A program made the translations under genes and the position numbers. From Eledone cirrhosa (Eukaryota), in contig OZ024741.1 of NCBI GenBank assembly GCA_964016885.1, positions 101,432,001-101,496,000 of the forward strand: 64,000 bases of DNA, in the 5' to 3' direction. A model generated the notes under the pieces. That model saw only the letters and a program-made list of their open reading frames with translations, was not told where the DNA came from and did no database searches. Within the stretch, counting starts at the first letter, position 1. Each line of letters starts with the position of its first letter. Positions 1,786-44,200 of this stretch are shown one piece after another.

Positions 1786-1980
1786 ATGTATCATCATTTT
1801 AAGATCATTTTAATATATATACATACATACATATGCATATATATATATACATATATATGTATATATGCATTTATATACATATATATACATATATATATAT
1901 ATATATATATATATACATATATATATATATATTTATATATTTATATATATATATATAAATATATAAATATATATTTATAT
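1786..1980. repeat. (TA)n microsatellite
   Basis: Direct reading. Confidence 0.95.
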
Positions 1981-2319
1981 TCATTTCATTTTATGTCCGC
2001 TTTTCCCTGCTTGCAAGGGTGGGACAGGAACTGATTCTGGCTTGATTTCTACAGCTGGATGCCCTTCCTAACACCAACCTCATTTACAGTGAGTGCTGGG
2101 TGCTTTTTTGCCGTGGCACCTCCACGTCCACTTTACAGTGAAATGATAGGGACCCCAGTCCTTATCATCTCATTTCTACAGCTGAGTAAACTGGAGCAAT
2201 GTGAAATAAAGTGTCTTGCTCAAGGAAACAACACATCACCTGGTCTGAGAATTGAACTCACAACTCACAACCTTTCGATTGCAAGGCCAATGCTCTAACC
2301 ACTAAGCCATGTGCCTCCA
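1981..2319 (-). mobile_element. tRNA-derived SINE (SINE-A) with CORE-like body and RTE-derived tail
   Basis: Minus strand reads TGGAGGCACATGGCTTAGTGGTTAGAGC (A box) ... GAGTTCAATTCTC (B box) ... CCTTGAGCAAGACACTT ... tail CTTGCAAGCAGGGAAAAGCGGACATAAAATGAAATGA; four copies in the window. Confidence 0.88.
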
Positions 2320-2334
2320 TTATATATATATATA

Positions 2335-39074: not shown

Positions 39075-40885
39075 ATATTGTTAACCAGGTAATACTAGAA
39101 GGTGTCATACCAAAAGATTGGTGCAGTAGCATCATTGTCAACTGCTACAAAGGTAAAGGTGATGCACTAGATAGAGGAAACTATAGAGGTATAAAGCTGA
39201 TGGACCAGTTCATGAAAGTAACAGAAAGAGTTATAGCACAGTTGATTAGGGATTGGGTGAAACTAGACGAGATGCAATTTGGGTTTGTAACCAGGAAGAG
39301 GCACCACTGATGCCCTCTTCCTTGTGAGGCTGTTACAGGAAAAGTACCTAGCTAAAAGTAAGCCACTCTACCTGGCATTTGTCGACCTTGAGAAAGCTTT
39401 TGACAGAGTTCCACGTGCTGTAATCTGGTGGGCTCTTAGAAAACTAGGAGTAGATGAATGGCTTATGAAAGCGGTACAAGCCATGTATAGGGGAGCAGTC
39501 AGCAAAGTTAGGATTAGCAATGAGTATAGCGAGGAATTTAGCGTACAGGTTGGGGTCCACCAGGGCTCTATTCTTAGCCCCCTCCTGTTCATCATAGTCC
39601 TGCAGGCAATAACGGAGGAGTTTAAGACCGGATGCCCATGGGAACTCCTGTATGCTGATGACCTCGCACTTATAGCTGAATCTATGGTAGAACTAGAGAA
39701 TAAATTCCAAACTTGGAAGCAGGGACTAGAAAGAAAGGGTCTCAAAGTCAACATGACAAAGACTAAGGTCCTTGTAAGTAGACTAGAAAACAGAACCCAG
39801 ATCCCCTCAGGGAAATGGCCTTGCTCAGTATGTAGGAAAGGTGTAGGTAGGAACTCCATTCTCTGCCCCAAATGCAAACAATGGATACACAAGAGATGTA
39901 GCGGGATCTCAGGAAGCTTAATTAAGAATGTAGGCTTCACATGCAGCAGCTGTGCTGGGACAGCAAGCAGCAAACGGCCACAGGAAACAAGTACCACCAA
40001 TCTCTGGGAGGGCTCTGTAGAAACAGTAGACAGCTTCTGCTACCTAGGTGACCGAATTAGCAGCGGAGGTGGGTGTTCAGAAAGTACAATAACTAGGGTA
40101 AGAACAGGATGGAAGAATTTTAGGGAACTACTACCACTGCTAGCTGCAAAAGGCTTCTCCCTCAGAATGAAAGGCAGACTGTATGATGCGTGTATCCGAA
40201 CAGCGATGTTGCATGGTAGTGAGACCTGGGTGCTGAAGGTGGAAGACTTACGTAAATTAGAGAGAAACGAAGCCTGCATGCTCCGATGGATGTGTAACAG
40301 TAATATACGTGAACGACAAAGCATAAATGAATTGAGAGAGAGACTGAGCATAAGAGGAATCAAATGCTGTGTGCAGGAGAGGCAGTTGCACTGGTATGGA
40401 CATGTGATGCGCATGAAGGATGACTGCTGCATAAAAAGGTGCAGAGCACTAGAAGTCGATGGAAATCGCGGAGTGGGGAGACCCAAGATGACATGGGATG
40501 AGGTGATAAAAGCCGACCTTACCCAATTACACTTCTCAAAGGCAATGACACACGACCGTGACCCCTGGCGTCACGCAGTAATACAGAGTACCCGACCTCC
40601 CATGGGTACAAGCTGAAGCATATAGACAATATGCCCCCACACCCCCCACCGCAAGGTGGTCGTGGAGGTGCCATGGCAAAAAAGCACCCAGCCCACACTG
40701 TAAAGTGGACGTGTAGGCGCCACAAAAAAGCACCTAGCACTCACTGTAAATGAGGTTGGTGTTAGGAAGGGCATCCAGCTGTAGAAATCAAGCCAAATCA
40801 GTTCCTGCCCACAACAGGACAACCCGTCTAACCCATGCTAGCGTGGAAGAACGGACGTAAAACGGTGATGATGATGATGATGATG
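39075..40885 (+). mobile_element. RTE LINE family B, 5'-truncated
   Basis: ORF 39324..40616 with RT motifs and PHD insert; 3' UTR and (GAT)n tail. Confidence 0.94.
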
Positions 40886-41236
40886 GACAATATGTAAAGA
40901 AAATAAACCGAATACTCAGATGGATGGATAATCTTTAAGATTTTCTTCGATGAAGCAGGAAAAATGCAGGTTTTCAGCTAATGCAGGCCCTAGGGGATCA
41001 AGAAACGGATTTTTTCTTATGTGCATAATATGCCTTGAAATTTCTAGAAAATTGGTCTTGTGTAATGACTAAAAAGAACCCTAAAAAGCTGAAAAAATGC
41101 AGTTTTTCACCTAATGTGGGCCCTAATGGGGGAGGGGGCTCCGAGGTATCGTGGCTGGGAATCCAGGATTATATAGGCAGCGGGGAGGTGTGGCTTGAGT
41201 GTTGTACCACCTCTCTGCTTCTCTGCGTCTGTTTAT

Positions 41237-44200
41237 ATCATCATCATCATCATCATCAACGTTTAACGTCCGTGTTCCACGCTTGCATGGGTTTGGACGG
41301 GGGTAGTCCCACTTGAGGCAAGAGTGATTGTCTTGCTCGCATAGGACTGTCTGGCAGGTTTTCTACAGTTGGATGCCCTTCCTAACACCAACCACATTTA
41401 CAGTGTGGGTCTGGGAGGTTTTTACCGTGTTGCCTACACGGCCACATTACAGCGTGGACTGTGTGTTTTTTTGTCGTGACACCTACACGATCTCATTTGT
41501 TTCGGCCTGGATGAACTTTACATAGAACGGGGTGGGGGTGGGGGTGGTGGGACGGGGTGTATTTTGTTAGAGATGCCTACTGGCTGGAGTAGGTTTTACT
41601 ATATATTTAGGTAAGGCGGGTCTTCTCTGTTACTGAGTACCGCCAAAGGTCTCGGTCCAGTGACATTGTCTTGGAGAGGTGTAAGTGTGTGATGTCGGAG
41701 TTTATCAGCTCGTCCCAGGTTTTTCTAGGTCTGCCTATTCCGTGACTACCGTCTATCTTTATTGCCCTGCACTTTGTTATACAGCTATCGACTTTCATGC
41801 GCATCACGTGTCCATACCAACGTAGCCTTCTCTCGAGTAAACAACATCTGATCCCTCTTATCTCTAATTTTTTCCTTAGTTCGTTTATGCTTTGCCGTTC
41901 ACGTATATTACTGTTACACATCCAGCGGAGCATGCAAGCTTCGTTCCTCTCTAGTCTGCGTATATCCTCTGCACACAATGCCCAGGTCTCACTGCCATGC
42001 AGCATTGCTGTTCGTATTGTTCGTATGCAGGCATCGTACAACCTGCCTTTCATTTTTAGGGAGAACCCTTTAGCAGCTAATAGTGGTATAAGCTCTCTGA
42101 ACTTTTTCCAACCAGTTCTGACTCTAGCTACAGTACTTTCAGAGCACCCTCCCCCACTGCTGATTTTATCGCCCAGGTAACGGAAGCTGTCCACTATTTC
42201 TATAGAACCCTCTGCGCAATTGAAAGAGCTAGTATTTCGTGGGCACTTGCTGCTACTTATTGCACCAGAACACCGGCCACATGTAAAATCTATGTTCTTA
42301 GTTAGCTTACCTGTGATCCCACTACATCTTTTATGCACCCATACTTTGCATTTAGGACATAAAATGGAGTTTCTACCTACGCCTTTCCTACACACCGAGC
42401 ACGACCATTTCCCAGAAGGGACCGCCGCCTTGTTTTCTTTCCTACAAACTAGAACTTTGGTCTTAGCCAGGTTAATTTTAAGTCCTTTTGACTCTAGGCC
42501 GTGCTTCCATGTTTGGAATTTCTTCTCTAGCTCGGCCATTGATTCCGCTATGAGTGTCAGGTCGTCTGCGTATAGGAGTTCCCATGGGCAGCCGGTCTTG
42601 AACTCCTCTGTTGTAGCCTGAAGGGCAATAATAAATAGTAGGGGGCTGAGAACAGAGCCCTGATGGACGCCAACTTTTACGCTAAACTCTTCACTATATT
42701 CATTGTTAATTCTAACCTTGCTGACTGTTTCTTTATACATGGCTTGTATAGCCCTCACAAGCCATTCGTCAACGCCTAGTTTTCTAAGAGCCCACCAGAT
42801 AATGGAGCGGGGGACTCTGTCGAAGGCTTTCTCCAAGTCGACAAAAGCTAAGTAGAGGGGTTTACCTTTAGCTAGGTACTTCTCCTGTAGTTGTCGTACT
42901 ATGAAAAGAGCGTCTGTGGTACTTTTGCCTGACACAAACCCGAACTGCATTTCATCTAGGTCAATTCTCTCTCTGATTAGTTGCGCTATTACTTTTTCCG
43001 TGACCTTCATGACCTGGTCGATTAATTTAATGCCTCTATAGTTACTCCTATCTAGGGCGTCTCCTTTACCCTTATAACAGTTAACGATGATGCTGCTATG
43101 CCAGTCCTTCGGAACAACGCCATTCTGTACGACTTGGTTAACTATGCGGGTGACCATGGTGTGTCCCACCGTGCCAGATGCCTTCAGCATCTCAGCAACT
43201 ATTTCCGAAGGCCCAGCCGCCTTACCCGTCTTCATATCCTTGATTGCCTTACTTATTATACTCCCCTCGACTAACACTGCTGGTCCCTCTATTGGGTCGA
43301 TATGGGGGAGACTGTCTTTCTCCCATTTATTCTCCTCATTTAGTAGCCTTTCATAGTGACACTTCCAGTTACCTTCTTATCAGCGTCGGTGATGGCAAGT
43401 GTGCCATCGTCGTTTAGTACACACTTCTCCCCGACAATATCACGGTTTTCCTTGACGTATTGCCTAGCAATCCTGAACACCTCACGTTTTTGGTCATCGC
43501 GTTGTAGAACATGCTTGAACTTTCTTTCCTCAGCTTCCCTTCTTGCTAAGTACACTTGTCTCCTAGCTTCCCTCCTGGGCACTTGATAGTCTTCTCTACT
43601 TCCCCCATCCCGCCATACTTTCCAAGCCTGCTTTTTGGCCTTAATTGACCCCTCCACCTTACTGTTCCACCACCATGTTACTCTCCTCCTGCCTACAGGC
43701 CTGCTCCAGCCACAGACTTCGTCTGTCGCCAACAGCAGGTTTGCTTTCAGAAATTCCCACTCTCCCTCTATATTGTCCGACTCTAAAAGTTCTTCCTTAC
43801 TGTCGAAAGCATCAAGTAATATGCTTTGAAATTTATTCCTGGCTGTGGGGTCCTTTAGCTTCCATATTTTTCTCCTGAGGATAGTCCTCTTCTGCTGTCG
43901 AGTACGTCTCGTCCTGACTATGAGGTCGCTAATTATCAGTCTATGTTGGGAGGTGCATTCTTCATGGGGGAGGGATTTAGTGTTTACAACAGACACTCTG
44001 TCACGTCTTCTGGTAAGGATATAATCTACCTGGCTTGTGTGTTCCCCGGATCTATAGGTGATCAGGTGATTGTCACGTTTTTTGAAGTTAGTGTTACAGA
44101 TAGTTAGGTTATTTGCATCACAGAATTCCAGGATTCTGGAGCCTTCCTGATTTCTAGTACCAAACCCATAGCCTCCATGGATTTCGTCGTAGCCGTCACA

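What the first reader, a model, noticed from the sequence alone, without database searches (positions are those of the whole stretch)
1786..41240. Several retroelement families repeatedly insert into (TA)n microsatellites in both orientations
Seen: almost every RTE A/B/C copy, three of four SINE-A copies, the family D derivatives and the Penelope-like element have one or both ends directly in a (TA)n tract. This gives tail-to-tail pairs (12273/12321, 33829/33935) and head-to-head pairs (31213/31750, 35043/35163) within one tract. The tracts at 31214-31749, 33830-33934 and 35044-35162 share the TATGTATATACATATG interruption, as if one tract was split repeatedly. Inference: TA arrays act as a shared, self-complementary landing pad used by unrelated retroelements, and the pad grows through target duplication and TA tails.
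Basis: partly seen in the sequence, partly recalled or inferred. Interest (0 to 1): 0.75.

Follow-up and report, generated by a model that had tools for sequence, protein, structure and literature searches.

The report
Jumping genes piling into TA repeats
Several families of jumping genes in this animal genome sit next to TA repeats far more often than chance gives and split them into long nested stacks, likely because at least three different cutting enzymes each favour T-A steps; this is already described for the Penelope-type elements and looks like a new variant of a known cutting preference for the RTE-type ones.

Summary
Window 22918-38765 consists only of TA tracts and nine elements of six families. 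4,052 of 16,981 SINE-A heads directly follow (AT)5, 17.6 times the expectation. RTE-A/B/C and SINE-A 5' ends touch TA in 52 of 84 sampled copies, against 5% for random positions and 4 of 53 for a control SINE. Both Penelope-like families end in TA in about 90% of copies.

The tracts most likely came first. TA lies at 5'-truncated ends, both flanks share locus-specific interruptions, and target duplications are short (median 6 bp; nick at Y^A in 25 of 29).

RTE tails are (GAT)n, not TA. Short duplications cannot build the pads. RTE-A/B/C and SINE-A are one enzyme lineage, and 38-61% of their 5' ends lie outside TA.

TA targeting is published for Hydra/Naiad Penelope-like elements. The RTE signature resembles the published Tn-TA pattern, but with upstream TATA (18 of 29) in place of TTT (1 of 29). 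This scan noted TA-seeking RTEs before in this genome, and Hydra-type insertions in other genomes.

The parts
1813..4192 (.). Small nest: TA tract / SINE-A(-) / 15-bp TA / RTE-A(+) / TA tract
1979..2317 (-). SINE-A (tRNA-like head by eye, RTE-type 3' end); both ends in TA
2336..4075 (+). RTE-A, 5'-truncated, (GAT)n tail, 112-bp tandem duplication in 3' UTR
10744..11075 (+). SINE-A outside TA (inserted in a SINE-E copy); the exception
11781..12273 (+). RTE-B 3' fragment, both ends in TA; tail-to-tail with the next copy
12322..14232 (-). RTE-A, 5'-truncated, both ends in TA
14332..14887 (+). Penelope-like family 2, 3' fragment with a hammerhead core near 14768-14793; both ends in TA
15089..16089 (-). 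RTE-A 3' fragment, both ends in TA
18725..22917 (+). Family D, BovB-like RTE (APE + RT, broken frames); 3' end abuts TA tract, 5' end does not; 5' boundary approximate
22918..38765 (.). Main nest: ten TA tracts (16-2801 bp) alternating with nine elements and nothing else; likely one ancestral tract
23438..24628 (-). RTE-B, truncated at both ends, both ends in TA
24645..26534 (+). Penelope-like family 1 (Hydra-type): 3' UTR with a 430-bp inverted copy and an 80-bp one-sided extension; both ends in TA
29336..29682 (-). SINE-A, both ends in TA
29780..31213 (-). RTE-A, 5'-truncated; head-to-head with the next copy
31214..31749 (.). TA tract with the shared 16-mer interruption (4 hits)
31750..33830 (+). 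RTE-A, 5'-truncated; tail-to-tail with RTE-C
33831..33935 (.). TA tract with the shared 16-mer (4 hits)
33936..35043 (-). RTE-C, 5'-truncated, young family (about 99% identical copies)
35044..35165 (.). TA tract with the shared 16-mer (1 hit)
35166..37410 (+). RTE-A, 5'-truncated, same 3' UTR duplication as 2336-4075
37465..37597 (+). D3 3' fragment (bipartite non-autonomous relative of D), both ends in TA
38361..38704 (-). SINE-A, both ends in TA
39040..40885 (+). RTE-B outside TA; exception
41237..45137 (-). Near-full-length RTE-A (APE, RT, PHD finger; frameshifted), no TA run of 10 nt or more at either end; used as family reference
60013..60319 (+). D3, 5'-truncated, both ends in TA

Best explanation
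RTE-type and Penelope-type retroelements sit at TA tracts many times more often than chance, likely because they insert into tracts that already existed and because separate endonucleases likely converge on alternating T-A steps.

RTE-A/B/C and their SINE-A (steps inferred): the APE domain nicks at a Y^A step, mostly T^A, best when a short TA run lies just upstream. The (GAT)n RNA tail primes on 2-3 bases of AT. A staggered second cut leaves a duplication of about 6 bp or less. This is a loose preference: TA arrays are simply the densest supply of good sites (5% of the genome), and about half of the copies land elsewhere.

Hydra-type Penelope elements target TA almost strictly with a GIY-YIG nuclease (known). 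The BovB-like D/D3 lineage favours (TATG)n and TA.

Each insertion leaves TA on both sides and TA reads the same on both strands, so later insertions land beside earlier ones in either orientation. The tracts themselves most likely lengthen by ordinary slippage, not by retrotransposition.
For: Genome-wide: 4,052 of 16,981 SINE-A heads follow (AT)5, 17.6-fold. Two equally A/T, non-alternating 10-mers give 1.2-fold (5 copies) and 5.6-fold (23 copies).

5' ends in TA: RTE-A 14 of 19, RTE-B 9 of 22, RTE-C 10 of 15, SINE-A 19 of 28; null 5.1%; control SINE-E 4 of 53 (Fisher p=4e-11). Consecutive SINE-A heads on C1: 35 of 90.

TA at truncated 5' ends cannot come from a tail. Up- and downstream tracts share interruption 8-mers (Jaccard 0.48 against 0.18 shuffled, 18 pairs, p=0.0005). 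Duplications of 5 bp or more at non-TA sites: 18 of 65 against about 3 by chance.

Of 29 unambiguous duplications, 27 start with A, 25 follow a pyrimidine and 18 have TATA within 14 nt upstream (null 15%). TA on the 5' side only: 40; on the 3' side only: 16 (p=0.002).

Penelope family 1: 3' end in TA 18 of 20 (random regions) and 22 of 23 (targeted), inverted end 13 of 14. Family 2: 25 of 28.
Against: No biochemistry and no empty alleles. No contig or read bridged a whole junction.

A position matrix from 21 non-TA sites predicts 10-44% TA-adjacent sites depending on width, against 62% observed in 172 pairs. The loose-motif model therefore does not fully account for the excess. The training set is small and partly TA-like, and the 172 pairs include neighbours inside clusters.

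Selectivity against (CA)n is ambiguous: 2.1-fold if the last T belongs to the SINE, 14-fold if it belongs to the target. Neighbouring tracts share G/C interruption polarity even 2-10 kb apart (42 of 64), which inflates the flank-sharing test. In the random regions alone the RTE counts are tiny (RTE-A 5' 2 of 5, RTE-C 1 of 4).
Confidence: 0.7

Rival explanations
1. RTE-A/B/C are dedicated (TA)n-targeting LINEs, like Waldo, Mino, Kibi, Koshi or Dong for other repeats. The endonuclease, or the PHD finger behind the RT, reads the TA array or its cruciform or nucleosome-free state.
For: Alternating TA beats other all-A/T repeats per site by about 14- and 3-fold. There is an upstream bias. Part of the excess is not explained by the position matrix. 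The ORF has a PHD finger.
Against: 65 of 172 junction pairs have no TA run on either side, and 55 of 90 consecutive SINE-A heads have none upstream. Unique-site insertions show the same Y^A nick and short duplication.
Confidence: 0.15
2. TA arrays are fragile. They break on their own and capture retroelement cDNA during repair, or deletions between TA tracts truncate elements and bring them together.
For: Most copies in TA are 5'-truncated. The two near-full-length RTE copies at unique-looking 5' flanks (L078, L059) and window 41237-45137 lack TA at the 5' end. One window RTE-B (23438-24628) is cut at both ends.
Against: The effect is family-specific: control SINE-E is 4 of 53 at 5' ends. Full-length SINE-A heads are enriched. 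3' tails are intact. Regular duplications are present, including at tract edges.
Confidence: 0.07
3. The elements seed the TA tracts as tails, which then expand (microsatellite birth, as described for lepidopteran RTEs in PMC2887409).
For: D3 copies always continue into ATGT or ATAT (16 of 16 in random regions), so a tail origin is possible for that family. Decay of (GAT)n to (AT)n is conceivable.
Against: TA is at least as common at 5' ends as at 3' ends (52 of 84 against 48 of 110; 35 of 90 against 16 of 62). Many tails pass straight into unique DNA.
Confidence: 0.04
4. The junctions are assembly joins across collapsed TA repeats.
For: No read-derived contig bridged a full element-TA-element junction.
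Against: Interruptions match on both sides of elements in a locus-specific way. Duplications are present. The effect is family-specific. The window holds no N. Contigs of runs X10 and X11 show SINE heads running into TA (tables 7-8).
Confidence: 0.04

Closest known systems
Hydra-clade (also Naiad, Neptune) Penelope-like elements; Craig et al. 2021, PMC8557442 (passages and section 11 read)
   Same: C-terminal GIY-YIG, CxCX5C linker, CxxC and CxH motifs, inverted 5'-truncated copy with a one-sided extension, insertion into (TA)n ('almost all families').
   Different: The extension is 80 bp (30-40 bp stated for Naiads and other PLEs). The RWK motif reads RWR. The hammerhead-like region of family 1 lacks the canonical CUGANGA box (the same variant in all 36 matches).
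RTE-clade Tn-TA insertion signature (plant RTE/Au SINE, Bov-B/Sauria SINE); PMC6007223 (abstract, Discussion read), PMC13295347 (abstract, Results, Discussion read)
   Same: The duplication starts with A preceded mostly by T, as in Bov-B. There is an upstream recognition element. Tail repeat and target start match.
   Different: The upstream element is TATA/(TA)n (18 of 29), not three Ts about 10 nt upstream (1 of 29; null 11%). C^A is also used (7 of 29). About half of the copies end up in microsatellites, which the sections read do not describe.
Microsatellite-specific LINEs Waldo (ACAY), Mino (AC), Kibi (TC), Koshi (TTC), Dong (TAA) and the Micron MITE (TA), as listed in PMC3812793 (passages read)
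   Same: Insertion into pre-existing microsatellites, interrupting them.
   Different: No RTE and no TA-targeting LINE is in that list. The preference here is partial, not sequence-specific.
Bipartite non-autonomous RTEs and RTE-tailed SINEs (Bov-A, RTESINE; PMC5786205, passages read)
   Same: D3 shares a 5' UTR segment (69%) and the last 30 nt (87%) with D. SINE-A shares the RTE-B/C 3' end.
   Different: D3 sits in (TATG)n or TA tracts at its 5' end (18 of 30; null 5%).

Membership tests
RTE-clade LINE (RTE-A/B/C) | One ORF with APE endonuclease and RT, no separate ORF1 | tested here: met
   Pfam Exo_endo_phos_2 and RVT_1 in RTE-A (frameshifted copy); one 700-aa frame from the endonuclease region into RT in an RTE-C copy
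RTE-clade LINE (RTE-A/B/C) | 3' short tandem-repeat tail, frequent 5' truncation, short target duplication | tested here: met
   (GAT)n tails; median 6-bp duplication
RTE-clade LINE (RTE-A/B/C) | RT phylogeny inside the RTE clade | not tested
   No named reference set was on hand; the best 120 hits are mostly unnamed, 46-67% identical. The label RTE rests on anatomy and recall.
Tn-TA signature of RTEs | Duplication starts at a TA step | tested here: met
   T^A 18, C^A 7 of 29
Tn-TA signature of RTEs | T stretch about 10 nt upstream of the nick | tested here: not met
   TTT at -14..-8 in 1 of 29; null 11%
Sequence-specific microsatellite-targeting LINEs (Waldo/Mino/Kibi/Koshi/Dong type) | Nearly all copies in the target repeat | tested here: not met
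   32 of 84 and 55 of 90 5' ends outside TA
Hydra-clade Penelope-like element (family 1) | RT followed by C-terminal GIY-YIG; CxCX5C linker; CxxC and CxH; no CCHH | tested here: met
   Motif search on L382 and related copies. Pfam found no family at E<=0.1 for two 532-aa pieces.
Hydra-clade Penelope-like element (family 1) | RWK and DKT motifs | tested here: inconclusive
   RWR in L047; that frame breaks off where DKT would lie
Hydra-clade Penelope-like element (family 1) | Canonical hammerhead ribozyme in the pseudo-LTR | tested here: inconclusive
   GAAAC, stem III and GTC are present by eye, but the CUGANGA box is not canonical; no hammerhead among the 150 of 264 Rfam rows shown
Hydra-clade Penelope-like element (family 1) | Insertion into (TA)n; inverted copy with one-sided extension | tested here: met
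Hydra-clade Penelope-like element (family 1) | RT phylogeny with Hydra references | not tested
   Reference sequences (supplement of PMC8557442) were not fetched
Penelope-like element, clade open (family 2) | Hammerhead core near the 3' end and upstream GIY-YIG | tested here: inconclusive
   Canonical core in the window; a decayed GIY-YIG upstream in 1 of 29 loci (L254)

The most novel reading that the evidence does not exclude
An RTE lineage with a PHD finger has evolved true (TA)n recognition, convergently with Penelope-like elements. The genome's microsatellites are partitioned into niches that follow each element's tail: (GAT)n-tailed RTEs into TA, ATGT-ended D3 into (TATG)n, the (ATT)n-tailed SINE-E into (ATT)n. 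Microsatellites then act as a genome-wide safe haven that builds multi-kilobase nests.
Probability: 0.25. Interest if true: 0.6.

Novelty: new variant of a known kind. Interest (0 to 1): 0.35.

Why it matters
It gives a large natural data set (about 17,000 SINE-A and 9,000 D3 exact heads) for the open question of how RTE endonucleases and tail-target pairing choose sites. It shows a form of the Tn-TA signature in which TA replaces the T stretch. It also explains why such genomes hold kilobase nests of elements and TA that defeat short-read assembly. The Penelope half is a clean example of something already published.

Tried and rejected
Laying public runs. One search was cut at the repeats and swamped by other copies. 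One search showed SINE-head-to-TA pieces but no contig with 31 letters on both sides of the tract. Neither gave an empty allele; both are inconclusive for this locus.

Rfam scan: the rows shown were microRNA-family matches on the TA tracts far below their gathering scores (rejected as chance), plus one U4 hit. Protein search: close relatives, almost no names, no clade label. Pfam on the Penelope ORF: nothing.

The first regular expression for Penelope-1 3' ends caught only 2 copies and was replaced. The one for Penelope-2 caught 13 of 29 loci (12 in TA) and was replaced by BLAST. The 'RANDOM RTE-B' rows are mostly SINE-A cross-hits and were not used.

Rows dropped before counts: the window's own copies; L203-L206 and L162 (duplicated flanks); five RTE-B 5' ends that were alignment breaks; the satellite group L295-L301; 28 of 90 SINE-A whose 3' end was not found; 5 of 30 D3 3' ends. 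One of 80 random regions did not exist.

Rejected readings: pad growth by duplication, TA tails for RTE-A/B/C, plain A/T-richness as the sole cause, one common mechanism.
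Full report
Setting. The window is G000:C2:101432001-101496000 of a 3.0-Gb animal genome. An octopod is my guess from recall and from earlier scan notes; I did not test it. Self-comparison with TA masked, reading and Pfam define the families. RTE-A, -B and -C are LINEs with a (GAT)n tail (APE, RT and PHD domains scored on RTE-A) and proteins 74-79% identical. SINE-A has a tRNA-like head (by eye) and their 3' end. D is a BovB-like RTE (label recalled) only 26-37% identical to RTE-A, and D3 is its bipartite relative. 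There are two Penelope-like families.

Observation. Nine of 11 RTE-A/B/C copies, 3 of 4 SINE-A, both D3, the 3' end of D and both Penelope-like elements touch TA (with for interrupted tracts). From 22918 to 38765 there is nothing but ten TA tracts and nine elements. The 16-mer interruption occurs 9 times, only in the three named tracts, and in 0 of 339 random tracts of 40 bp or more.

Genome-wide test. 79 evenly spaced 10-kb regions are 5.2% TA tract against 12.8% in the window. With the rule 'perfect TA run of at least 10 nt within 15 nt', random positions score 5.1%. Copies fetched by internal sequence (best-scoring, hence young) score as follows. At 5' ends: RTE-A 14 of 19, RTE-B 9 of 22, RTE-C 10 of 15, SINE-A 19 of 28. 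At 3' ends: 14 of 29, 8 of 28, 14 of 25, 12 of 28. A control tRNA-type SINE with an (ATT)n tail (SINE-E) scores 4 of 53 and 8 of 71. Ninety of the first SINE-A heads on C1 score 35 of 90 and 16 of 62.

Exact whole-genome counts. Of 16,981 SINE-A heads, 4,052 directly follow (AT)5, 17.6-fold over expectation. Five follow a TAA-type and 23 a TTA-type 10-mer (1.2- and 5.6-fold). Sixty-eight follow a CA run (2.1- or 14-fold, depending on whether the last T is element or target). Alternation therefore matters, not only A/T content. Penelope family 1 ends in TA in 18 of 20 random and 22 of 23 targeted 3' ends and 13 of 14 inverted ends; family 2 in 25 of 28.

Which came first. TA at truncated 5' ends cannot be a tail, and it is commoner there than at 3' ends (5' only 40, 3' only 16 of 172 pairs, p=0.002; these pairs include neighbours inside clusters). 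Tracts on the two sides of one element share interruption 8-mers (0.48 against 0.18 shuffled, 18 pairs). Part of this may be regional, since tracts 2-10 kb apart also share G/C polarity in 42 of 64 pairs. Target duplications are real (18 of 65 non-TA pairs at 5 bp or more, about 3 by chance) and short. The 29 unambiguous ones have median 6 bp, 27 begin with A, 25 follow T or C, 18 have TATA within 14 nt upstream and 1 has TTT at -14..-8. In a satellite, several SINE-A duplications look 2-4 bp long by eye. Such duplications cannot build tracts of hundreds to 2,801 bp, so slippage is the likely source (inference from general knowledge).

How strict. 65 of 172 pairs have no TA run on either side. 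A position matrix trained on 21 non-TA sites predicts 10-44% TA-adjacent sites with growing width, against 7.8% background and 62% observed. A loose local motif thus explains much but not all of the excess. Families differ. D3 (9,209 heads) has (TATG)3 at 13 of 30 5' ends (null 0.3%; SINE-A 1 of 90) and TA at 6 of 30. SINE-E has (ATT)3 at 10 of 61 (null 0.25%; SINE-A 2 of 90). Each matches its own 3' end, as tail-target pairing predicts; insertion into older copies' tails could also contribute.

Penelope family 1. Longer copies encode RT, a CxCX5C linker, a C-terminal GIY-YIG, CxxC and CxH. [quoted passage not shown] Pfam gave no match. RWK reads RWR, DKT was not reached, and the hammerhead box is non-canonical.

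Artefact check. Short-read data could not bridge the tracts, though contigs of X10 and X11 show SINE heads running into TA. Duplications, locus-specific interruptions and family specificity argue against misjoins.

Literature. Seen: PMC8557442 (passages, section 11); PMC6007223 (abstract, Discussion); PMC13295347 (abstract, Results, Discussion); PMC9115989, PMC5786205, PMC2887409 and PMC3812793 (passages). No supplements were read. Nine full-text searches listed no paper reporting RTE accumulation in (TA)n. The library lacks Repbase and most subscription journals, so this is weak evidence of novelty. Earlier notes of this scan already describe TA-seeking RTEs in this genome and Hydra-type TA insertions in others; I reached both readings before opening them.

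Verdict. A real, genome-wide and strong pattern. Half of it is known (Penelope targeting), and half is a variant of the known RTE signature. Shown: enrichment, anatomy, duplications, tails. Inferred: enzyme preferences, priming, slippage, order of nesting.

Noticed in passing
window 59571-59700 (+): U4 snRNA match above the Rfam gathering score (50.7 against 46 bits); gene or pseudogene not determined.
   Followed up: no
window 6000-8426 (+): Broken Pif1-helicase frames, between two 83% similar 200-bp repeats at 4821-5025 and 8620-8838; looks like a decayed Helitron (recalled).
   Followed up: no
window 61307-63366 (-): LTR-retrotransposon-like frames with RT-like and integrase matches, GC about 58%.
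   Followed up: no
window 3734-3965 and 37070-37300: The same 112-bp tandem duplication in the 3' UTR of two RTE-A copies 98.7% identical over 1.7 kb: a subfamily or a local copy.
   Followed up: no
window 41607-43376 (-): PHD finger (Pfam, 27.6 bits) behind the RT core of RTE-A, shared by many of the 120 homologues listed.
   Followed up: partly
window 26335-26460; L111-L139: Hammerhead-like region in Penelope family 1 with a non-canonical core, the same in all 36 matches.
   Followed up: partly
window TA tracts 4076-38320; L031-L109: Interruptions are nearly all G on the plus strand across the window; neighbouring tracts elsewhere also share polarity (29 of 32 under 500 bp, 33 of 43 to 2 kb, 42 of 64 to 10 kb). 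Possibly a regional mutation asymmetry.
   Followed up: partly
window 22340-22917 (+): Family D ends in two C2H2-like fingers (read by eye) and a compound microsatellite 3' UTR, matching the description of octopus RTE-2_OV in PMC9115989; sequences not compared.
   Followed up: no
L350-L379: D3, about 590 bp and 9,209 exact heads, sits mostly in (TATG)n or TA at both ends.
   Followed up: partly
L295-L301 (C1, 8.3-9.3 Mb): SINE-A copies in a short-unit satellite, several at the same phase, with 2-4 bp duplications by eye; matches earlier scan notes on an 18-bp satellite.
   Followed up: partly
L202-L206 (C25, 21-23 Mb): Five RTE-C hits with the same 3' flank: a segmental duplication.
   Followed up: no
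window 53600-53770; L031-L109: SINE-E, the most abundant short repeat seen (79 matches in 0.79 Mb), has an (ATT)n tail, longer duplications by eye and an (ATT)n-flank bias.
   Followed up: partly
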